Shown piece by piece: positions 5,351-63,980 of a stretch of DNA of 64,000 nucleotides. The translations under genes were made by a program, and so were the position numbers. The number at the start of each line of letters is the position of its first letter. Position 1 is the first letter of the stretch. Origin of the DNA: an uncultured Actinomycetes bacterium (GTDB lineage: Bacteria; Actinomycetota; Actinomycetes; Mycobacteriales; Jatrophihabitantaceae); contig CAVPUA010000003.1 in NCBI GenBank assembly GCA_963708805.1, positions 750,455 through 814,454 on the forward strand, written 5' to 3'. The notes beneath the pieces are model-generated. The model was not told the DNA's origin. It saw only the letters and a program-made list of their open reading frames with translations, and did not search any database.

Positions 5351-6486
5351 GGGGTCACCACCGGAAGCGTCAACTCGACGAGCCAGCCGCCGCCTTCCTG
5401 AGGACCGGTGCGCACCTGACCGCCGCAGTCGGCCACGCGCTTGGCCATCCCGGCCAGCCCCGTGCCGCTGCCCTGTCCGGTGACCGGCGAGTGGCCGGCG
5501 GCCGGCCCGAGGTCGCCGATCCGCACAACGAGGCCGTCCGTCCAGTCCAGCGCGACGACGACGGGGGAGCCGGGCGCGTACCGGGCCGCGTTGGTCAGCG
5601 ACTCCTGGACGGCGCGGTAGGCCGCCTCGCCGCCGGCGTCGGACACTGCGCCGGGCGTTCCCGACACCTCGAACCGGGCGTTGCCGGGGTAGCGCTCGAC
5701 CAGCGCCGGGATCGCGTCGACGCCGAGGCCGCCAGGATCGCGCAGTGCCCCGACCGCCGAGCGCGCCTCGATCAGCCCGTCCCGCGCGAGTTCGGCGGCG
5801 CGATCGAGCGGGGCCAGCACCTCGGGGCCGACGTCGGCCTTGGCGGCGACGGCCCGGATGGCCTGCAGCTGGAGCGACAAGCCAGCCAGGCTGTGGGCGA
5901 GCACGTCGTGCATGTCGCGCGCGATCCGGCCGCGCTCCTGGGCCGCGGCGGCCCGCGCCTCGGCCGCCCGGCTGGCCTCCAACTCGATCAGCAGCGCGCG
6001 CGCCCGGTCGCGTTCGACCACGAGCTGCTGGCGTTCGGCCACCCGTTGATAGAGCACAGGCACGGCGAGTCCGGCCAGCAGTCCGGCGATGCTGTGCGAC
6101 GCCCAGCCGACCGTCGCGCCGAACAGGATCGCTGCGCCGATCATCAGGGCCCGGCTCAGCTGCTTGGACGGAATCGAGGCCAGCCGGCCGACCGCAATGA
6201 CGAACGGGACGTAGCCCAGCCCGTTCGGTGCGGCCAGGATCGCGCCGAGACCCGCTGCGCAGACGACCACGATCGCGGTTGTGCGCAGGCGGTCGTCGTC
6301 GGCCGCGGTGCGCCACATCGCCACGGAGGCGATCACCATGAGCGCTCCGGCGGTGATCCGCTGCGCGACGCCCTCCGCCTGGTAGACGGTCGCGCCGTCG
6401 ACGGCCACCCACGCGATGATCGACCACCACCAAGGCAACGAGGTGAGCCATCGATCGAAGCCCGGCTGGGTCGTCTCAGTCGTCAT
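5347..6486 (-). CDS. sensor histidine kinase (HisKA_3 / NarX-DesK type)
   Basis: H-box MHDVLAHSLAGL, ATPase boxes ESLTNAARYA and GSGTGLAGM, and several N-terminal TM helices. I chose the start at MTTETTQ (ATG 6486). Its TGA overlaps the GTG of the response regulator. Confidence 0.85.
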   Translation of the reverse strand: MTTETTQPGFDRWLTSLPWWWSIIAWVAVDGATVYQAEGVAQRITAGALMVIASVAMWRTAADDDRLRTTAIVVVCAAGLGAILAAPNGLGYVPFVIAVGRLASIPSKQLSRALMIGAAILFGATVGWASHSIAGLLAGLAVPVLYQRVAERQQLVVERDRARALLIELEASRAAEARAAAAQERGRIARDMHDVLAHSLAGLSLQLQAIRAVAAKADVGPEVLAPLDRAAELARDGLIEARSAVGALRDPGGLGVDAIPALVERYPGNARFEVSGTPGAVSDAGGEAAYRAVQESLTNAARYAPGSPVVVALDWTDGLVVRIGDLGPAAGHSPVTGQGSGTGLAGMAKRVADCGGQVRTGPQEGGGWLVELTLPVVTP

Positions 6487-58455: not shown

Positions 58456-60045
58456 TCAGCCGACCATCTCGAATTTGTCGAAGTGGATCTTGGCACGCGG
58501 AACGCCGCTGTGGACCAGCTTGCTGACCGTCGTCGAGATCATCGGATCCGGCCCCGAGACGAGCACATCGACCCCCATCGTCGCCCAGTCCCGCAGTCCG
58601 GGCACGATCTCCTCGACCCGTCCGTGATAGCCCTCGTAGGCCGGATCGTCGGACAGCACGGCGTGCACTTCGGCGTTCAACCAGTAACCCCCGGCGTGGA
58701 TCAGCTTGGCCAGCTTGTCGACGGAATAGGTGTCGTCTCGAGATCGGCCCCCGACGAACGTGTACAGCTGCGGTGCGTCGGGCCAGCCGAGGATCGACTC
58801 GACGACGGCCGTGATCGGTGCGGCCCCGGTGCCCGACGCGACGCACAACAGGCCGCCCGGAACGGTGCCGGGTTCGACCACGAGATCGTTGCCCCTCGGC
58901 GGCCCGAGCGTGAGACGGTCACCCGGCTGGGTGTGGGCGACCAGCGCCGACGAGACGCCGGACCCACCGAGCGCGCGGACTTGGATGTCGAAGGTGTTGT
59001 CGGCGCGCGGCGCGCTCGCGATCGACATCGAGCGCCACTCCCGGCGGAACGCGGGCACCTCGAGCGTGAGGTACTGGCCGGCCTTGTACGGGTACGGCGC
59101 GTCGGGCTGGATGCGAAGGACGGCGAAATCGCGCGAGAGTCGCTGATGATCGAGGACCTGCGCGCCCCACGACGTGGGCTCGCCCGCGTGCTGCATGGCG
59201 CCGTCGATCATGATCGTGGCGAGCCGCGTGTAGCTGCCGACGATGGCCGCCTCGTGTTCATCGGTCCACTTGTTGCCGGCCAGCCGCTTCCAGGCGCTGA
59301 TCATGGCGGCGCCCGCGACCTCGTAGTGCCGGGGTTCGACGTCGAACTTCCGGTGATCGGCCCCGAGCTGTTCCAGGTGCGCGGTCAGGCCCTGAGGATC
59401 GTCGGCGACCACCCACTGGACGACGGCCCGGCCGAACTCCTGACGCTGCCGGGTCATGCTCGACGGGAACATGAACGGAGCCTCGGGCACGCGCAGGAAC
59501 AGCTCGGCGTAGAAGTCCGAGATCAGCCGGTCGGCCCGGTCGCTGACGAACGAGAACGCTTCGCGCACCAGCGCCGGATCGAAGTCGCGCTGGTTGGCCG
59601 GGAAGACGGGCTTGGGCGGGGGCGGCGGTGTCTGGGCGACATAGAACTCGGGCAGGTTCGGAGGCGGAAGGCGTCGTTGCGCATTGCCGACGACCAGCTC
59701 GCCCGGGGCGGCGATCGGCGGGGCCGGGGCAGCCGGTACCGGCGCCGGTGCGACGGCGGCGGGCGGTGCAGGTAGCTCGGTGTCCGCGTGGGGTGGGCCG
59801 GGCACCTCGGCTTCGAACGACTCCGGCCTCGGGTGCGCGCTAAGCGACGTCGTCCAGCTCGTCGACCCGTCCGGCGACGGTGAATCGGTGGGCGGTTGGC
59901 CCGCCCCGCGTTCGTGTCCGTGCTGCGGCGCCGAGTAGTCGTCGTCGAGGAGCCATCGCCGTAGTGCACCGCGCAATCCCACCGGACACCCCCTGTTCAG
60001 GACCGCGCGCAACGCACTTGGCCTCATACCACGCGTGTCGGCCAC
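58456..60045 (-). CDS. globin-domain / FNR-type FAD-NAD(P)H oxidoreductase fusion (flavohaemoglobin-like) with Pro-rich N-terminal extension; start uncertain
   Basis: Globin-like FYAELFLRVPEAPFMFP and LGADHRKFDVEPRHYEVAGAAMISAW. FNR motifs RSMSIAS (RxYS-type), GGSGVSSAL, the NAD(P)H loop ASGTGAAP, and SGPDPM. The first ~170 aa are Pro/Ala rich. Confidence 0.75.
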   Translation of the reverse strand: MADTRGMRPSALRAVLNRGCPVGLRGALRRWLLDDDYSAPQHGHERGAGQPPTDSPSPDGSTSWTTSLSAHPRPESFEAEVPGPPHADTELPAPPAAVAPAPVPAAPAPPIAAPGELVVGNAQRRLPPPNLPEFYVAQTPPPPPKPVFPANQRDFDPALVREAFSFVSDRADRLISDFYAELFLRVPEAPFMFPSSMTRQRQEFGRAVVQWVVADDPQGLTAHLEQLGADHRKFDVEPRHYEVAGAAMISAWKRLAGNKWTDEHEAAIVGSYTRLATIMIDGAMQHAGEPTSWGAQVLDHQRLSRDFAVLRIQPDAPYPYKAGQYLTLEVPAFRREWRSMSIASAPRADNTFDIQVRALGGSGVSSALVAHTQPGDRLTLGPPRGNDLVVEPGTVPGGLLCVASGTGAAPITAVVESILGWPDAPQLYTFVGGRSRDDTYSVDKLAKLIHAGGYWLNAEVHAVLSDDPAYEGYHGRVEEIVPGLRDWATMGVDVLVSGPDPMISTTVSKLVHSGVPRAKIHFDKFEMVG

Positions 60046-60929: not shown

Positions 60930-62243
60930 TCAGGCCGCGTCGGCCGACGCGGTTGCGATCCGGTTGCGGCCGTCGCTCTTGGCTCGATACAGCGCGGCGT
61001 CGGCTGCGTGCATCAGCTCGGTCACCGTCCCGCCGCCATGCGGGTAGGTGGCGATGCCGATCGAGACCGAGAGATCGTTGATCAACCGCGGTCCGTCCGG
61101 GTGCTCGGCGTAGGTGTCGAGCACGGTCACGCCGTGTCGGATCCGCTCGGCGACCGTGTGCGCCTCGGACTCGCGGGCGCGCGAGAGGAGCACCACGAAC
61201 TCCTCGCCGCCGAACCGCCCGACGGCGTCGTTGTCGCGGACTTCGCCGGTGATGCAGTTGGCCACCGCGCGCAGCACTTCGTCGCCGTTGAGGTGACCGT
61301 GCTGGTCGTTGATCCGCTTGAAGTGGTCGAGGTCGATCATCAGCACGCTCAGGGTCGCGTCGGCGCGGTTGGCAGCTTTGGCCAGCTCGCGACTCGCGCG
61401 ATAGTGCCAGCTCGCCGCGTTGAGGACGCCCGTCTTGTGGTCGAGGATCGCGGTCGTCTCGAGCTCCCGGTTGAGCAGGCCGCGGTGCAAGATCATCAGC
61501 GGCGGGAGGATCGCGATCGACACCGCGGGCAGGGTCACCATGACGAGCGCGACGATCACCGCGAGGCAGAGGGTCGCGACCTCGAGGAAGTTGTCCGGCC
61601 AGCTGCCGATCACCTCGTGCACCGAATGCGTACGGGCCCAGATGGTGGGGACGACGAGTACGGCACCGATGAGGAAGTAGACCGCCAGCGAGGCGGACAG
61701 GGCCAGTATCCCGTCGGTTCCGCGGTCGGTCGCCTGCTTGATGCCGCTGACGCCGAACAGGTTCAGGACGGCTCGCGCGAGATAACACGTCAGGATCACG
61801 AAGCAGGTGTTCATGATCGAGCGGTACAGCGTGATCTCGCGCAATCGGTACCAGCTGCGCACACTCAACTGCAGGTACAGGAGGACGACCAGAGCGGCGA
61901 CGAGGATCGGCGGCAGCAGCAGTACGCCGGCGAATGTCCAGACCGACGTCAAGTTGATGTGTGCGGTGTCGGTGAGTTGTCGCCGCATGCGTTCGGTCTG
62001 TCGACCGATCTCGGCCTGGGCGATGCCCAGCGCCGTCAGGCCGGCGAGCACCACGAGATCGTGCCATTGGACTGTGGTGTCCCTCGCAATGACCAAAGTC
62101 GACGCGACAACGGTGGCTTCGACCAGAAGAATATAAGCGACTATCGACCGCGGTTGCGCCCATAACGCCCACGAAAATCGTCGGCGCACCACAGAAGAGG
62201 GCCAAGGGCCCTCGCTCGCGGAACTTAAATCAGTAATACTCAT
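60930..62243 (-). CDS. membrane-bound diguanylate cyclase (GGDEF domain)
   Basis: Intact 437 aa with about 7 N-terminal TM helices. The GGDEF domain has DHFKRIND and the active site RFGGEEF. Confidence 0.9.
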   Translation of the reverse strand: MSITDLSSASEGPWPSSVVRRRFSWALWAQPRSIVAYILLVEATVVASTLVIARDTTVQWHDLVVLAGLTALGIAQAEIGRQTERMRRQLTDTAHINLTSVWTFAGVLLLPPILVAALVVLLYLQLSVRSWYRLREITLYRSIMNTCFVILTCYLARAVLNLFGVSGIKQATDRGTDGILALSASLAVYFLIGAVLVVPTIWARTHSVHEVIGSWPDNFLEVATLCLAVIVALVMVTLPAVSIAILPPLMILHRGLLNRELETTAILDHKTGVLNAASWHYRASRELAKAANRADATLSVLMIDLDHFKRINDQHGHLNGDEVLRAVANCITGEVRDNDAVGRFGGEEFVVLLSRARESEAHTVAERIRHGVTVLDTYAEHPDGPRLINDLSVSIGIATYPHGGGTVTELMHAADAALYRAKSDGRNRIATASADAA

Positions 62244-62346
62244 AGGGTCTCACCGAACGGGCGAGATCGAAATAGGCGCGCGCCCACATTGCGCCACATT
62301 GCTCGCGATCCTGACCGACCGCGAATTACCCCCGAAAGGGTGCAAC

Positions 62347-62367
62347 ATGTCCAACCGCGAAGGCTGA
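62347..62367 (+). CDS. candidate mini-ORF 1 (MSNREG)
   Basis: ATG TCC AAC CGC GAA GGC TGA, with GAAAGGG ending 6 nt upstream. Confidence 0.35.
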   Translation: MSNREG

Positions 62368-62408
62368 CCCTCGCACTCGTCACGTCCCACCTACTTGAAG
62401 GAGCAGTT

Positions 62409-62426
62409 GTGAACCGCGAAGGCTGA
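62409..62426 (+). CDS. candidate mini-ORF 2 (fM-NREG)
   Basis: GTG AAC CGC GAA GGC TGA, with GAAGGAG (62397-62403) 5 nt upstream. Confidence 0.4.
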   Translation: MNREG

Positions 62427-62466
62427 TCGTCCCTCAGTTCCGTCCCGGCTACCCGAAGGAGCAGTT

Positions 62467-62484
62467 GTGAACCGCGAAGGCTGA
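62467..62484 (+). CDS. candidate mini-ORF 3 (fM-NREG)
   Basis: GTG AAC CGC GAA GGC TGA, with GAAGGAG (62455-62461) 5 nt upstream. Confidence 0.4.
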   Translation: MNREG

Positions 62485-62539
62485 ACCAAACCACGCAGTA
62501 CCGCTAGACCGTGCTACACCACCCCCGCTAGGAGTAATC

Positions 62540-62560
62540 ATGTCCAACCGCGAAGGCTGA
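62540..62560 (+). CDS. candidate mini-ORF 4 (MSNREG)
   Basis: ATG TCC AAC CGC GAA GGC TGA, with AGGAG (62530-62534) 5 nt upstream. Confidence 0.4.
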   Translation: MSNREG

Positions 62561-62702
62561 ACTCACGCTAGCTTAACACCTAACTGGTCGATGCGACACC
62601 TGGGATTTGCGTCGGTCGAGTTCGGTGCGGTCGAACCCCTATCCCGCGCCGTTTCGACACGATCCAGATGTCGGTCGGCCCGAGGCCCAGTTGCCTCCAC
62701 GA

Positions 62703-63980
62703 TCAATCGCCGGCGCCGTGCCTGGCGTTCGTGCGCGGACTGCTGAGCGCGATCCAAATCGCGATCACGGCGCCTGCTGCCCCGGCGAGCGCGACCGTGT
62801 TGCGGGTGCCGATCTGATCGGCCAGCAAGCCGGCGGCGAGTGCCCCGATGCCTTGAACGGCGACGAGCCCGGAAGTCAGCAATCCGGATCCCTGCGCCCG
62901 CATCGAGTTGGGTAGCCGGCGTACATACGCGGCCGTGCTCTGGATGTTGTACCCGGTGGCGACCAGGCCCGACATCGCGAACAGGGCCATCGAGACGACC
63001 AGGTTCGGGTGCATGACGCAGACGGTCAGTGGCAGGCCGGCGACCACGCCCAGCAGGGCGAGCGTGCGGATCGGCAACGACGCCGGCACCCACTTGCCGA
63101 ACACGATCCCGCCGAGCACGCTCCCGGCGGGATCGCTCGCCATCAACAGCCCGACGGCGCCGGCGCCCGCCCCCAGCGCGGCCGCGTACGGGGCCGCCAG
63201 CGCTTCGGGGACCACGTAGAACCCGGCCAGCCACGACAGGCACAGCAGCGAACGAAGGGTGGGGTCTCGCCAGACCAGCTGCGCGCCGGCGGATGTGGAC
63301 GCGAAGAACGACAGGCGCTCGGTCGGTTGCACGGTGTGCGGGTGCACGCCGATCCGCAGGATCAGCGCTGAAGCGAGGAACGTCGCCGCGTCGAGGGCCA
63401 GACCGGTCGAGGAATCCAACCCGGCGACGATGGCCCCGCCGCCGGCGAAACCGACCAGCTGGGCACCCTGGATCGTGATGTTGCGGACCGCCATTCCAGC
63501 GGTGTAGGTGTCGCCTTCGAGGACGTCGGGAAGAACCGCCTGCTGAGCCCCACGAAACGGCCCGCCCAGCAGCGCCATCAACGCCACCAGCAATCCGACG
63601 AGCCACAACGGACAGCCGTGGATCGCCGCTGCGCCGATGAAGGCGGCCCGAGCCAGGTCGAGTGCCACCATCACCCCGCGACGTGGGTAGCGATCACCCA
63701 GACCGCCGAGCAGCGTCCCGCCGATGAAGGCGGGTACGAACGTGAGGGCGTACGCCAGGCCCGTCCATGCCGCCGACCGAGTGTGGTCGAACACGAGGAC
63801 CGCGAGCGCCACCCGAGCCAGCTGATCGCCGGCGATCGAGAGCGTCTCGGCCGACCACAGAGCACGGAACTCGGCGATGGCGAACGGAGCGAGCAGGCCG
63901 CCTCTTGTCGGCCGCTCGGCACTCGAGTGCCTGCCTTGCTCTAGCCGAAGATCCCGGTCGTCGCGACGAGGCACCGACAT
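62703..63980 (-). CDS. MFS transporter (EntS/MFS_3-like)
   Basis: Intact 425 aa with 12 predicted TM helices and the loop motif GGLGDRYPRRGVM between TM2 and TM3. Confidence 0.8.
   Translation of the reverse strand: MSVPRRDDRDLRLEQGRHSSAERPTRGGLLAPFAIAEFRALWSAETLSIAGDQLARVALAVLVFDHTRSAAWTGLAYALTFVPAFIGGTLLGGLGDRYPRRGVMVALDLARAAFIGAAAIHGCPLWLVGLLVALMALLGGPFRGAQQAVLPDVLEGDTYTAGMAVRNITIQGAQLVGFAGGGAIVAGLDSSTGLALDAATFLASALILRIGVHPHTVQPTERLSFFASTSAGAQLVWRDPTLRSLLCLSWLAGFYVVPEALAAPYAAALGAGAGAVGLLMASDPAGSVLGGIVFGKWVPASLPIRTLALLGVVAGLPLTVCVMHPNLVVSMALFAMSGLVATGYNIQSTAAYVRRLPNSMRAQGSGLLTSGLVAVQGIGALAAGLLADQIGTRNTVALAGAAGAVIAIWIALSSPRTNARHGAGD

What the first reader, a model, noticed from the sequence alone, without database searches (positions are those of the whole stretch)
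62334..62560. Array of four Shine-Dalgarno-driven 5-6-codon mini-ORFs, all encoding (S)NREG
Four tiny ORFs lie on the + strand. ATG TCC AAC CGC GAA GGC TGA is at 62347-62367. GTG AAC CGC GAA GGC TGA is at 62409-62426 and again at 62467-62484. ATG TCC AAC CGC GAA GGC TGA recurs at 62540-62560. Each is preceded at 5-6 nt by an SD element (GAAAGGG, GAAGGAG, GAAGGAG, AGGAG). The 15-nt core AACCGCGAAGGCTGA is identical in all four copies while the spacers differ, which suggests selection on the core. The exception is a 58-nt tandem unit shared by copies 2 and 3 that also conserves GTCCCnnCTACnn. The array is divergent from the GGDEF gene (start 62243) and runs toward the 3' end of the convergent MFS gene (stop 62703). 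It is therefore not a conventional leader peptide for a co-directional downstream gene. I know of no described element with this organisation. Possible readings are as follows. (a) Translated minigenes acting through ribosome or peptidyl-tRNA load, like the phage lambda bar minigenes. (b) Multicopy precursors of a tiny peptide. (c) A purine/GGA-rich sponge RNA, with 8 GAAGG/AGGAG-like sites in 230 nt and C-rich GTCCC spacers, titrating ribosomes, an RNA-binding protein or a C-rich sRNA. (d) On the opposite strand, a repetitive structured 5' UTR of the cyclase gene.
Basis: seen in the sequence. Interest (0 to 1): 0.85.

Follow-up and report, generated by a model that had tools for sequence, protein, structure and literature searches.

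The report
Tandem hexapeptide minigenes beside a diguanylate cyclase
Four 5-6-codon genes, each with its own ribosome-binding site, belong to a previously undescribed family of tiny peptide genes that sits, in one to seven copies, head-to-head with one family of membrane c-di-GMP synthases in actinobacteria, and their evolution shows selection on the peptide, not on the RNA.

Summary
Four exact copies of AACCGCGAAGGCTGA lie at the stated coordinates, each inside a Shine-Dalgarno-led ORF of 5-6 codons.

Comparative data make it much stronger. I recovered 12 loci holding homologues of the neighbouring membrane diguanylate cyclase (31-70% identical). Ten carry 1-7 such mini-ORFs on the strand opposite the cyclase, starting about 100-300 nt from its start codon. 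An eleventh (L034) has one doubtful candidate and L031 has none.

- **What is conserved:** the start codon, the stop codon, the SD spacing and the peptide.
- **What is not conserved:** the nucleotides and the spacers.
- **Coding signature:** Ser is written TCC/TCG/AGC, Arg is written CGC/CGT/CGA/AGG, and all three stop codons occur.
- **Peptide pattern:** the peptide is nearly identical within an array (only residue 2 varies in L032) and differs between lineages (MSNREG, MSNRDT, MRNRDS, MRNRDN, MxSRDN, MRNHNW, MRDRDM).
- **RNA structure:** no conserved structure exists on either strand and Rfam gives no hit.
- **3' end:** a GC-rich hairpin follows the last copy in several loci.

These are translated genes. 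The most likely reading is multicopy genes for a free hexapeptide that partners the cyclase and the often-adjacent MFS transporter. That function is inferred, not shown. I found no description in the literature.

The parts
62334..62340 (+). Shine-Dalgarno 1 (GAAAGGG), 6 nt before the ATG
   Evidence: Duplex with the 16S 3' end is -8.8 kcal/mol, against -3.8+-2.6 for all ATG/GTG in the window.
62347..62367 (+). Mini-ORF 1, ATG TCC AAC CGC GAA GGC TGA = MSNREG*
   Evidence: Orthologous to L001 2491..2471 and L002 163..143.
62397..62403 (+). Shine-Dalgarno 2 (GAAGGAG), 5 nt before the GTG
   Evidence: -8.7 kcal/mol
62409..62426 (+). Mini-ORF 2, GTG AAC CGC GAA GGC TGA = (f)MNREG*. One codon shorter, with SD spacing kept.
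   Evidence: The 3-nt difference from L001 copy b keeps the frame and the SD-start distance.
62455..62461 (+). Shine-Dalgarno 3 (GAAGGAG)
   Evidence: -8.8 kcal/mol
62467..62484 (+). Mini-ORF 3 = (f)MNREG*, a recent 58-nt tandem duplicate of copy 2
62530..62534 (+). Shine-Dalgarno 4 (AGGAG), 5 nt before the ATG
   Evidence: -7.1 kcal/mol, the weakest of the family
62540..62560 (+). Mini-ORF 4 = MSNREG*
   Evidence: Orthologous to L001 2345..2325 (same downstream TAGCTTAACAC).
62244..62333 (.). Divergent control region between the cyclase start and the first SD. It presumably holds both promoters. It contains the direct repeat CCACATTGCG x1.9 at 62284-62302.
   Evidence: A spacing of 103-121 nt between the cyclase start and the first mini-ORF is conserved in 8 of the 9 loci of the core family (not measured in L030). 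No consensus promoter was found.
62569..62579 (.). TAGCTTAACAC, conserved with L001 just after the last mini-ORF. On the minus strand it reads TGnTAAGCT, which is extended -10-like.
   Evidence: Its function is inferred only.
62586..62680 (+). Long imperfect hairpin downstream of the array. It is a candidate terminator or 3' stabiliser of the mini-ORF transcript.
   Evidence: (z = -2.26 on +, 7/200 shuffles) against z = -0.49 on the minus strand. Comparable hairpins follow the arrays in L001, L029, L032 and L033.
60930..62243 (-). Partner gene: a membrane diguanylate cyclase with about 7 N-terminal helices plus GGDEF. It carries GGEEF and an RxxD I-site.
62703..63980 (-). An EntS/MFS_3-like transporter (MFS_1 significant; the MFS_3 score is just below Pfam's cut-off), often linked to the module
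   Evidence: MFS is adjacent in window, L001, L026, L027, L030 and L032, and nearby in L029.

Best explanation
**What it is.** The four mini-ORFs are real, translated genes of 5-6 codons. They belong to an undescribed family of SD-led 'minigenes' that accompanies one family of membrane diguanylate cyclases in high-GC actinobacteria: the Jatrophihabitantaceae-like clade of this window, Amycolatopsis, Kutzneria, Actinokineospora and Pseudonocardia.

**Proposed working.**
1. A short, unstructured, polycistronic mRNA starts in the roughly 100-nt region shared head-to-head with the cyclase gene.
2. It carries 1-7 independently initiated copies of the same tiny ORF.
3. It ends at a GC-rich hairpin.
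4. Its product is a free hexapeptide, here (f)M-S-N-R-E-G and (f)M-N-R-E-G. Copy number sets the dose.
5. The peptide acts together with the divergently expressed cyclase, as ligand or modulator of its 7-helix membrane domain. The frequently adjacent MFS transporter is the likely exporter.

**Shown by comparative sequence evidence:**
- conservation of the ORF, SD, start and stop;
- purifying selection on the peptide;
- linkage to the cyclase;
- absence of RNA structure;
- lineage-specific peptide variants.

**Inferred:**
- that one transcript covers the array;
- that the peptide rather than the act of translation is the effector;
- that the cyclase is its target;
- that the MFS is its transporter.

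I put about 0.9 on 'translated, peptide-selected minigenes' and about 0.45-0.5 on the peptide-partner mechanism.
For: **(1) Orthologous and homologous loci all carry the element on the strand opposite the cyclase.**
- L001: 3 copies (MSNREG). L002: 2 copies plus 1 cut by the contig end.
- L026: MRNRDT. L027: MSNRDT.
- L028: MRNRDS. L029: MSNRDS.
- L030: MRNRDN x3.
- L032: M[R/C/G]SRDN x7.
- L033: MRNHNW x4. L035: MRRDRDM and MRDRDM.

**(2) Coding signature.**
- Variation in codons 3-5 is almost entirely at third positions: AAC/AAT, CGC/CGT/CGA, GAC/GAT, with GAA giving D to E. The exceptions are the Arg family switch to AGG and Asn to Ser (AGC) in L032.
- Codon-family switches occur for Ser (TCC/TCG/AGC at two positions) and for Arg (CGN/AGG).
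- The stop codon is TGA 21 times, TAG once and TAA once.
- The one indel removes exactly one codon and keeps the SD spacing.

**(3) Within arrays the ORFs are 85-100% identical while the flanks are at 17-61%, mostly 20-40%**. Each copy is therefore kept individually.

**(4) SD strength.** The 23 copies average -12.6 kcal/mol against -3.8+-2.6 for all ATG/GTG in the window. The median copy falls in the top 0.2% of that background.

**(5) No structured RNA.** There are 0 consensus base pairs on either strand over 23 units. Array z-scores on the mini-ORF strand are +2.83, +1.25, +1.05 and +2.77. Rfam gives no significant hit.

**(6) Stand-alone unit.**
- GC-rich hairpins follow the last copy in the window and in L001, L029, L032 and L033.
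- The downstream neighbour on that strand is not conserved. It is the MFS 3' end, an integrase, a HAD hydrolase, or nothing.

**(7) The peptide is the same within an array (apart from residue 2 in L032 and one extra Arg in L035) but changes between lineages, while length and layout stay constant.** This is expected for a ligand co-evolving with a partner. It is not expected for a motif read by the invariant ribosome.

**(8) The element is locus-specific.** There is no other copy in the 64-kb window. The family regex gives no extra hit in 23 unrelated loci beyond the one pattern match that selected each of them.
Against: - There are no expression, ribosome-profiling or peptide data. All evidence for translation is evolutionary.
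- No promoter could be assigned.
- A hydrophilic, unprocessed hexapeptide acting as a signal or effector has no direct precedent.
- No modifying enzyme is linked.
- The MFS is missing next to the cyclase in L028, L033 and L035.
- One homologue (L031) has no mini-ORF, and L034 has only a doubtful one.
- In the window clade all 9 complete copies keep AAC CGC GAA GGC TGA without a single synonymous change, including the non-preferred GAA. Some nucleotide-level constraint or gene conversion therefore acts there too.
- In loci with the order MFS->cyclase, the array is antisense to any read-through transcript. An RNA-level contribution cannot be excluded.
- The sample is 12 loci chosen by cyclase homology. 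The closest relatives are MAG or metagenome contigs.
Confidence: 0.5

Rival explanations
1. Cis-acting regulatory mini-ORFs. The act of translating them, or a nascent-peptide-dependent pause at the stop codon, controls the life of a transcript that is divergent from or antisense to the cyclase gene. This would tie cyclase expression to translation status or to a small molecule. The peptide itself would have no function after release.
For: - Arrest and leader peptides are also conserved at the amino-acid level, and some are only 5-8 residues (from memory: Cat86 MVKTD, MsrDL MYLIFM, minimal ErmDL MRLR).
- The array shares a short control region with the cyclase gene.
- In the MFS->cyclase loci it is antisense to any read-through mRNA.
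- TAGCTTAACAC reads as an extended -10 on the cyclase strand upstream of the whole array.
Against: - No conserved co-directional downstream gene and no alternative RNA structures exist.
- In L028, L029, L032, L033 and L035 no gene lies upstream on the cyclase strand, so antisense overlap is not a conserved feature.
- Multiplying an attenuator 3-7 times, each copy kept by selection, is not expected.
- The peptide diverges strongly between lineages (NREG, SRDN, NHNW, DRDM), although the ribosome that would read it does not.
Confidence: 0.25
2. Minimal RiPP precursors. The hexapeptides are substrates of modifying enzymes encoded elsewhere, and the mature product is a modified small peptide, as with biarylitide BytA or microcin C MccA.
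For: - Tiny SD-led precursor genes exist in actinobacteria: bycA/bytA at 18 bp, with mccA at 21 bp cited there.
- An MFS exporter is often adjacent, as MccC is in mcc operons (from memory).
- MRNHNW has aromatic residues at positions i and i+2.
- An S9 peptidase neighbours L033.
Against: - No P450, MccB/ThiF-like or other tailoring gene is conserved next to the arrays.
- No residue typical of known minimal RiPPs is conserved. There is no Tyr/His pair, and a C-terminal Asn occurs in only two lineages.
- The conserved partner is a signalling enzyme.
Confidence: 0.1
3. bar-type minigenes. Translation of very short ORFs with strong SDs causes peptidyl-tRNA drop-off and loads ribosomes, Pth or one tRNA. 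The array would act as a growth or translation brake regardless of the peptide made.
For: The layout is a strong SD plus a 5-7-codon ORF, repeated. An acidic penultimate residue is known to weaken termination (from memory).
Against: - The peptide sequence is under purifying selection, while the last sense codon, which defines the sequestered tRNA, differs between lineages: GGC, ACC/ACG, TCC/AGC, AAC, TGG, ATG.
- Strict linkage to one cyclase family is unexplained by this reading.
Confidence: 0.05
4. Non-coding RNA element. This would be either a purine/GGA-rich sponge on the + strand or a repetitive structured 5' UTR or riboswitch of the cyclase on the minus strand.
For: Several GAAGG/AGGAG sites lie in 230 nt. 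The window's minus strand folds slightly better than shuffles (z = -1.55).
Against: - No Rfam family reaches significance.
- There are 0 consensus pairs on either strand.
- z-scores are >= +0.7 on both strands in L001, L030 and L032.
- Conservation follows codons, start, stop and SD spacing, not nucleotides.
- The internal GAAGG is absent from all other lineages.
- CsrA-type partners are not known in actinobacteria (from memory).
Confidence: 0.03
5. A functionless tandem or mobile repeat whose ORF-like look is accidental.
For: Copies 2 and 3 are a recent 58-nt duplication.
Against: - The element is found at the same place relative to the cyclase in 10 of 12 loci, with cyclases as low as 31-50% identical.
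- The spacers are unalignable while the ORFs are kept.
- It is not dispersed.
Confidence: 0.02

Closest known systems
bytA/bycA, the 18-bp biarylitide precursor gene (MRYYH) of actinobacteria
   Same: A Shine-Dalgarno-led ORF of 5-6 codons in high-GC actinobacteria whose product is the peptide itself. It was recognised only by linkage to a partner gene.
   Different: bytA is single-copy, co-directional with and immediately upstream of its P450, and is defined by MxYx[Y/H]. Here there is no P450, no aromatic pair (except the MRNHNW variant), tandem copies, divergent orientation, and a diguanylate cyclase as the conserved partner.
mccA, the 21-bp microcin C heptapeptide gene
   Same: A tiny translated gene (cited). 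From memory: it is followed by a hairpin that yields an abundant short transcript, an MFS exporter (MccC) sits in the cluster, and the peptides are hydrophilic and begin with MR.
   Different: MccA needs a C-terminal Asn and an adjacent MccB adenylyltransferase. Neither is conserved here. It is single-copy and co-directional with its operon.
Phage lambda bar minigenes and other toxic minigenes
   Same: A strong SD plus an ORF of a few codons. They are possible sources of peptidyl-tRNA.
   Different: bar function does not depend on the peptide sequence but on the last codon and tRNA. Here the peptide is conserved and the last codon is not.
Short regulatory leader or arrest peptides (Cat86 MVKTD, CmlA MSTSKNAD, MsrDL MYLIFM, ErmDL)
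   Same: The length (5-8 residues), SD-led translation and amino-acid-level conservation.
   Different: Those lie upstream of, and co-directional with, the regulated gene, and they work through alternative mRNA structures. Here no conserved downstream gene exists, no structure exists, and 3-7 copies occur.
Peptide pheromone systems with adjacent receptor and lineage-specific variants (Phr/RRNPP, Agr, ComX)
   Same: A peptide gene lies next to a sensor gene, often with a transporter. The peptide varies between lineages ('pherotypes').
   Different: Known pheromones are cut from longer exported precursors. Here there is no leader, no signal peptide and no processing gene. The adjacent sensor is a c-di-GMP synthase, not a kinase or RRNPP regulator. 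Signalling itself is not shown.
CsrB/RsmZ-type protein-sponge RNAs
   Same: Repeated GGA-containing purine motifs in a short intergenic transcript.
   Different: Sponges present GGA in hairpin loops and are non-coding. Here the motifs are SDs at fixed distance from start codons, no hairpins are conserved, and the repeats carry a coding signature.

Membership tests
Minimal RiPP precursor of the biarylitide type (BytA) | SD-led ORF of about 5 codons | tested here: met
Minimal RiPP precursor of the biarylitide type (BytA) | Adjacent co-directional cytochrome P450 (BytO) | tested here: not met
   No P450 appears among the called or annotated neighbours in any locus.
Minimal RiPP precursor of the biarylitide type (BytA) | Peptide motif MxYx[Y/H] | tested here: not met
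   The peptides are M-x-[N/S]-R-[D/E]-x, MRNHNW and MR(R)DRDM.
Microcin C-like MccA | C-terminal Asn in every member and an adjacent MccB (ThiF/E1-like) gene | tested here: not met
   The C-terminal residue is G, T, S, N, W or M. No ThiF-like neighbour was found.
bar-type toxic minigene | Strong SD plus an ORF of 2-7 codons | tested here: met
bar-type toxic minigene | Effect depends on the last sense codon and tRNA, not on the peptide sequence | tested here: not met
   The peptide is conserved and the last codon is variable.
bar-type toxic minigene | Peptidyl-tRNA accumulation and toxicity when Pth is limiting | not testable with these tools
   Needs experiment.
Leader-peptide attenuator or arrest peptide | Regulated gene immediately downstream on the same strand | tested here: not met
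   Downstream neighbours differ (MFS 3' end convergent, integrase, HAD, none).
Leader-peptide attenuator or arrest peptide | Alternative or conserved mRNA secondary structures coupled to the ORF | tested here: not met
   There are 0 consensus pairs. The arrays fold worse than shuffles.
Leader-peptide attenuator or arrest peptide | Ribosome stalling on the ORF | not testable with these tools
   Needs toeprinting or ribosome profiling.
Any Rfam RNA family (riboswitch, sRNA, cis-regulatory element) | Covariance-model match at or near the gathering score | tested here: not met
   The best hits are rmf at 19.1 bits against 45 (E = 0.59) and a miRNA at E = 7.
CsrB/RsmZ-like sponge RNA | GGA motifs displayed in conserved hairpin loops | tested here: not met
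Dispersed repeat (MIRU/REP/MITE-like) | Many copies at unrelated loci, with the whole unit including spacers conserved | tested here: not met
   There are only 4 copies in the window, all here. Spacers sit at random-level identity. Genome and metagenome scans found no other array.
Peptide pheromone / quorum-sensing cassette | Peptide gene adjacent to its sensor, with lineage-specific peptide variants | tested here: met
Peptide pheromone / quorum-sensing cassette | Precursor with export or processing signal, and a demonstrated extracellular signal | tested here: not met
   The ORFs are 5-7 codons, so they have no leader. Signalling is not testable here.

The most novel reading that the evidence does not exclude
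Unprocessed ribosomal hexapeptides are encoded by tandem 18-21-nt genes, which are among the smallest genes known. They are autoinducer-like signals exported by the neighbouring MFS pump and sensed by the 7-helix membrane domain of the divergently encoded diguanylate cyclase. This would give actinobacteria a direct peptide-to-c-di-GMP signalling pathway with lineage-specific 'pherotypes' (NREG, NRDT, NRDS, NRDN, SRDN, NHNW, DRDM).
Probability: 0.25. Interest if true: 0.92.

Novelty: categorically new. Interest (0 to 1): 0.86.

Why it matters
ORFs this short are discarded by every gene caller, so whole classes of products may be invisible. This case can be argued from sequence alone, because up to seven independently maintained copies per genome and a dozen diverged loci supply the replication that a 6-codon ORF normally lacks.

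If the peptide is the product, these are among the smallest bacterial genes. They would also be the first arranged as SD-led tandem arrays, and they would link a new kind of ribosomal micro-peptide to c-di-GMP signalling. In actinobacteria c-di-GMP governs development and antibiotic production.

If instead translation itself is the signal, it would be a new way of coupling a second-messenger enzyme to ribosome activity.

Either way the question is directly testable in cultivable strains. The search recipe (SD-led ORFs of 8 codons or fewer, repeated, next to a conserved partner) can be applied genome-wide.

Tried and rejected
- **Rfam.** A permissive search of 62000-62900 gave only chance-level hits.
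- **Genome scan.** ATGNNNAACCGCGAAGGCTGA against genome contigs gave 23 single hits and no array. Fourteen are the C-terminus (...MRNREG*) of group-II truncated haemoglobins. Three are one Streptomyces locus without an SD. The remaining six, including an Amycolatopsis MANREG and a Fibrobacteria MSNREG, are scattered single hits; the two I checked lie in unrelated contexts. I judged all of these to be chance.
- **Metagenome scans.** Two scans (two cores with a gap; ATGWSN + core) found nothing.
- **Promoters and terminators.** The consensus scan found none. A TANNNT search upstream of the first mini-ORF in 9 loci gave no consistent -10.
- **Array folding.** Tests for stable structure on both strands were negative, apart from a weak z = -1.55 on the window's minus strand.
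- **Consensus folding.** RNAalifold on 23 units gave 0 pairs on each strand.
- **Cyclase structure.** AF2 gave pLDDT 86. A PDB Foldseek search matched only the GGDEF domain, so the membrane domain gave no clue to a ligand.
- **More loci.** Further plasmid tblastn searches with the L033 and L035 cyclases gave no new loci.
- **Organism.** The cluster look-up returned no name for the window's organism. Two encoding-contig look-ups returned nothing, as did the look-up of the window's own protein.
- **Literature.** Searches for the peptide strings and for tandem minigenes, hexapeptides or sORFs with diguanylate cyclases found no description.
- **Ideas considered and dropped:**
  - Selenocysteine or read-through joining the copies. 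They are in different frames, and TAG and TAA are also used as stops.
  - A macrolide '+x+' arrest motif (R-N-R). It is absent from the Ser2 variants.
  - An RxxD c-di-GMP-binding mimic. It is present only in the Arg2 variants.
  - Derivation from a truncated-haemoglobin 3' end. There is no supporting synteny.
Full report
**1. The observation.**

The four mini-ORFs are:
- MSNREG* at 62347-62367 and 62540-62560 (ATG TCC AAC CGC GAA GGC TGA);
- VNREG* at 62409-62426 and 62467-62484 (GTG AAC CGC GAA GGC TGA), presumably made as fMet-NREG.

Each is preceded at 5-6 nt by GAAAGGG, GAAGGAG, GAAGGAG or AGGAG. The 15-mer AACCGCGAAGGCTGA occurs four times in the window and nowhere else, even with two mismatches allowed. 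The expectation is 0.18, and none of 100 shuffles reached four. Copies 2 and 3 are a recent 58-nt tandem duplication.

Both flanking genes are on the minus strand:
- a 437-aa protein with a long helical N-terminal half and a GGDEF domain (60930-62243);
- an EntS/MFS_3-like transporter (62703-63980).

The array therefore points away from the cyclase start and towards the 3' end of the transporter gene. G+C is about 70% in the genes and about 59% in the spacer. The closest relatives of the cyclase are from a Jatrophihabitantaceae MAG and from Pseudonocardiales.

**2. Related loci.**

I used the cyclase as an anchor and fetched homologous loci. The mini-ORFs are always on the strand opposite the cyclase.

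| Locus | Source | Cyclase identity | Mini-ORFs |
|---|---|---|---|
| L001 | Jatrophihabitantaceae MAG | 70% | MSNREG x3; MFS-cyclase synteny kept |
| L002 | metagenome contig | 63% | MSNREG x2, plus a third cut by the contig end |
| L026 | metagenome-assembled contig (Logan) | 50% | MRNRDT x1 (ATG CGT AAT CGC GAC ACG TGA); intergenic spacer only about 130 nt |
| L027 | metagenome-assembled contig (Logan) | 53% | MSNRDT x1 (ATG TCG AAC CGC GAC ACC TGA); intergenic spacer only about 85 nt |
| L028 | Amycolatopsis | about 51% | MRNRDS x1 |
| L029 | Kutzneria | about 51% | MSNRDS x1 |
| L030 | Actinokineospora sp. G85 | about 51% | MRNRDN x3, 100 nt apart, differing only by CGC/CGA and AAC/AAT |
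| L032 | assembly GCA_000504245.1 | 48% | seven copies (below); gene order is cyclase->MFS |
| L033 | Pseudonocardia plasmid | 43% | MRNHNW x4 |
| L035 | Amycolatopsis sp. AA4 plasmid | 31% | MRRDRDM and MRDRDM |
| L031 | metagenome contig | 45% | none |
| L034 | Nonomuraea | 35% | one doubtful candidate (MVRGVTWT*) |

The seven L032 copies encode MRSRDN, MCSRDN, MRSRDN, MCSRDN, MGSRDN, MCSRDN and MRSRDN. Their stops are TAG, TGA, TAA and TGA x4, and Arg4 is written CGA, AGG, CGT or CGC.

The first mini-ORF starts 103-121 nt from the cyclase start codon in 8 of the 9 loci of the core family (I did not measure it in L030). It lies farther away in L033 and L035.

**3. Why these are coding.**

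- *Only the ORF is conserved.* Alignment of the cyclase-proximal regions shows a single conserved island: SD, ATG, xxx AAY CGN GAN xxx, TGA.
- *Variation falls mostly where a coding sequence allows it.* Over the 23 complete copies of the core family:
  - Asn is AAC 14 times and AAT twice, with Ser AGC in the 7 copies of L032;
  - Arg4 is CGC 17, CGT 4, CGA 1 and AGG 1;
  - residue 5 is GAC 12, GAT 2 and GAA 9 (Asp or Glu);
  - Ser at positions 2 and 6 uses both codon families (TCC/TCG and AGC);
  - Thr is ACG or ACC;
  - the stop is TGA 21 times, TAG once and TAA once.
- *Frame is respected.* The only length change, in window copies 2 and 3, removes exactly one codon and keeps the SD-start distance.
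- *Each copy is kept by selection.* Within arrays the ORFs are 85-100% identical while sequences 20-40 nt upstream and 30 nt downstream are at 23-40%, which is random level. Each copy is therefore maintained individually, and in L030, L032 and L033 the synonymous differences show this is not gene conversion.
- *The SDs are strong.* SD pairing with the 16S 3' end averages -12.6 kcal/mol, against -3.8+-2.6 for all 3195 ATG/GTG of the window. The median copy is in the top 0.2%. The window's own SDs are the weakest of the family at -7.1 to -8.8.
- *No longer reading is consistent.* In 13 of 29 copies no longer ORF is possible, and elsewhere the alternative upstream starts are not conserved.
- *The element is locus-specific.* The family pattern does not occur on the opposite strands, elsewhere in the window, or in 23 unrelated loci beyond the single match that selected each.

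**4. What it is not.**

- *Not a known RNA family.* No Rfam family matches.
- *Not a conserved structure.* RNAalifold finds no consensus pair in 23 aligned units on either strand.
- *Not a stable fold.* On the mini-ORF strand the arrays fold worse than their dinucleotide shuffles: z = +2.83 in the window, +1.25 in L030, +1.05 in L001 and +2.77 in L032. The opposite strand gives -1.55, +1.11, +0.73 and +3.60. A structured 5' UTR, riboswitch or hairpin-loop sponge is therefore not supported. An open, accessible mRNA is.
- *Not a dispersed repeat.* An exact-pattern scan of 185,579 species genomes found no other array. Most of its 23 single hits are the C-terminus (...MRNREG*) of truncated haemoglobins, which I regard as a coincidence. 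Two metagenome scans found nothing.

**5. Anatomy of the unit.**

Downstream of the last mini-ORF there is a stable hairpin wherever that stretch is intergenic (the downstream stretches in L028 and L035 gave only weak or no signal, z about 0 and -1.06):
- window 62586-62680: z = -2.26 on the + strand against -0.49 on the minus strand;
- L001: z = -2.85;
- L029: a stem of about 20 bp, nearly perfect, z = -2.84;
- L033: z = -2.72;
- L032: an 8-bp perfect G+C stem (about 10 bp in the predicted fold), 8 nt after the seventh stop.

The gene that follows on that strand is never the same. It is the transporter 3' end, an integrase, a HAD hydrolase, or nothing. The unit therefore looks self-contained: a control region shared with the cyclase, 1-7 SD-led mini-ORFs, and a hairpin.

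I could not assign promoters. The 11-mer TAGCTTAACAC (62569-62579), shared with L001, would read as an extended -10 on the cyclase strand. That is only a lead.

**6. How it most likely works.**

The robust conclusion is that these are translated genes under purifying selection for a hexapeptide and are tied to one cyclase family. I give this about 0.9.

For function I favour the peptide as the product, for five reasons:
- Each of up to seven copies is kept intact, which points to dosage of a product.
- The peptide is uniform within a genome (apart from residue 2 in L032) but differs between lineages (NREG, NRDT, NRDS, NRDN, SRDN, NHNW, DRDM), while length and layout stay fixed. That is the behaviour of a ligand co-evolving with a partner, not of a motif read by the invariant ribosome.
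- The conserved partner is a membrane sensor-type enzyme expressed from the same control region.
- A transporter of the EntS/MFS_3 kind is adjacent in six loci and nearby in a seventh.
- The unit has its own 3' hairpin.

Whether the peptide acts inside the cell or after export, and whether it is modified, is unknown.

The main rival is a cis-acting role of translation or of the nascent peptide on a divergent or antisense transcript. It remains plausible at about 0.25, and it cannot be excluded for the MFS->cyclase loci, where the array is antisense to any read-through mRNA. It does not explain the copy multiplication or the peptide divergence, and antisense overlap is not a conserved feature of the family.

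A bar-like tRNA or Pth load is unlikely, because the peptide is conserved and the last codon is not.

**7. Comparison with what is known.**

The nearest precedents for genes this small are bycA/bytA (18 bp, MRYYH) and mccA (21 bp). Both are single-copy, co-directional with a dedicated modifying enzyme, and defined by residues that are absent here. Short arrest and leader peptides share the size but not the context. Pheromone cassettes share the logic of peptide next to sensor with lineage-specific variants, but their peptides are cut from exported precursors.

None of the membership tests is passed in full. Nine full-text searches, including all the peptide strings, found no description. I therefore rate it as a new kind of element. 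The library lacks most subscription-journal papers.

**8. Caveats and open points.**

- All evidence for expression is evolutionary.
- The closest relatives are MAG or metagenome contigs.
- The sample is 12 loci chosen through the cyclase.
- In the window clade the nine complete copies show no synonymous change at all, including the non-preferred GAA. This hints at an extra nucleotide-level constraint (an internal GAAGG?) or at conversion there.
- It is unknown why copy number ranges from 1 to 7, or why L031 lacks the element.

Noticed in passing
window 62284-62302: The direct repeat CCACATTGCG x1.9 lies in the divergent control region between the cyclase start and mini-ORF 1. It is a possible regulator binding site. 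It is not conserved in L001.
   Followed up: partly
window 62569-62579 (and L001 ~2306-2316): TAGCTTAACAC is conserved right after the last mini-ORF in two genomes whose spacers are otherwise unalignable. On the cyclase strand it reads TG-n-TAAGCT, like an extended -10 placed upstream of the whole array.
   Followed up: partly
L004-L006, L008-L012, L014-L017, L019, L022 (genome-contig hits): Group-II truncated haemoglobins of many proteobacteria, a Verrucomicrobiaceae MAG and a Gemmatimonadota MAG end in ...AD[W/F/H]MRNREG*. This is the same hexapeptide as the mini-ORF consensus, and here it is written with the identical 15 nt. I judged it a coincidence created by the search pattern.
   Followed up: partly
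window 58456-60045 (-): A flavohaemoglobin-like gene (Globin + FAD_binding_6 + NAD_binding_1) lies two genes downstream of the cyclase.
   Followed up: no
L029 ~5795-5878 (+): A second, paralogous MFS_3->GGDEF pair in Kutzneria has, at the equivalent antisense position, an SD-led 26-aa sORF: MIKRSESPRTGRPTEWRRVGRPTEWR*. It carries an internal repeat of GRPTEWR. The 'small ORF opposite a cyclase' theme may be wider than this peptide family.
   Followed up: no
L028 2859-2848 (-): The stop codon of the single Amycolatopsis mini-ORF (MRNRDS*) is followed in frame by AAC CGC GAA GAT (N-R-E-D). This looks like the relic of a second copy without an SD or start.
   Followed up: no
window 62229-62243 and the equivalent sites in L001, L002, L026, L028, L030: The cyclase gene begins with rare A/T-ending codons (ATG AGT ATT ACT GAT) in a 70% G+C genome. 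AGTAT is invariant across these loci while the start codon itself varies between ATG, GTG and TTG. This suggests a nucleotide-level signal at the start, either low structure or a promoter element of the opposite strand.
   Followed up: partly
L033 53-1966 (+): On the Pseudonocardia plasmid the array faces an S9 prolyl-oligopeptidase-family gene instead of an MFS transporter.
   Followed up: no
L013, L018, L020 (Streptomyces): ATG GGG AAC CGC GAA GGC TGA (MGNREG*) is conserved in three Streptomyces species, 13 nt upstream of a GTG-started gene. It has no convincing SD. It is probably chance plus close relatedness.
   Followed up: partly
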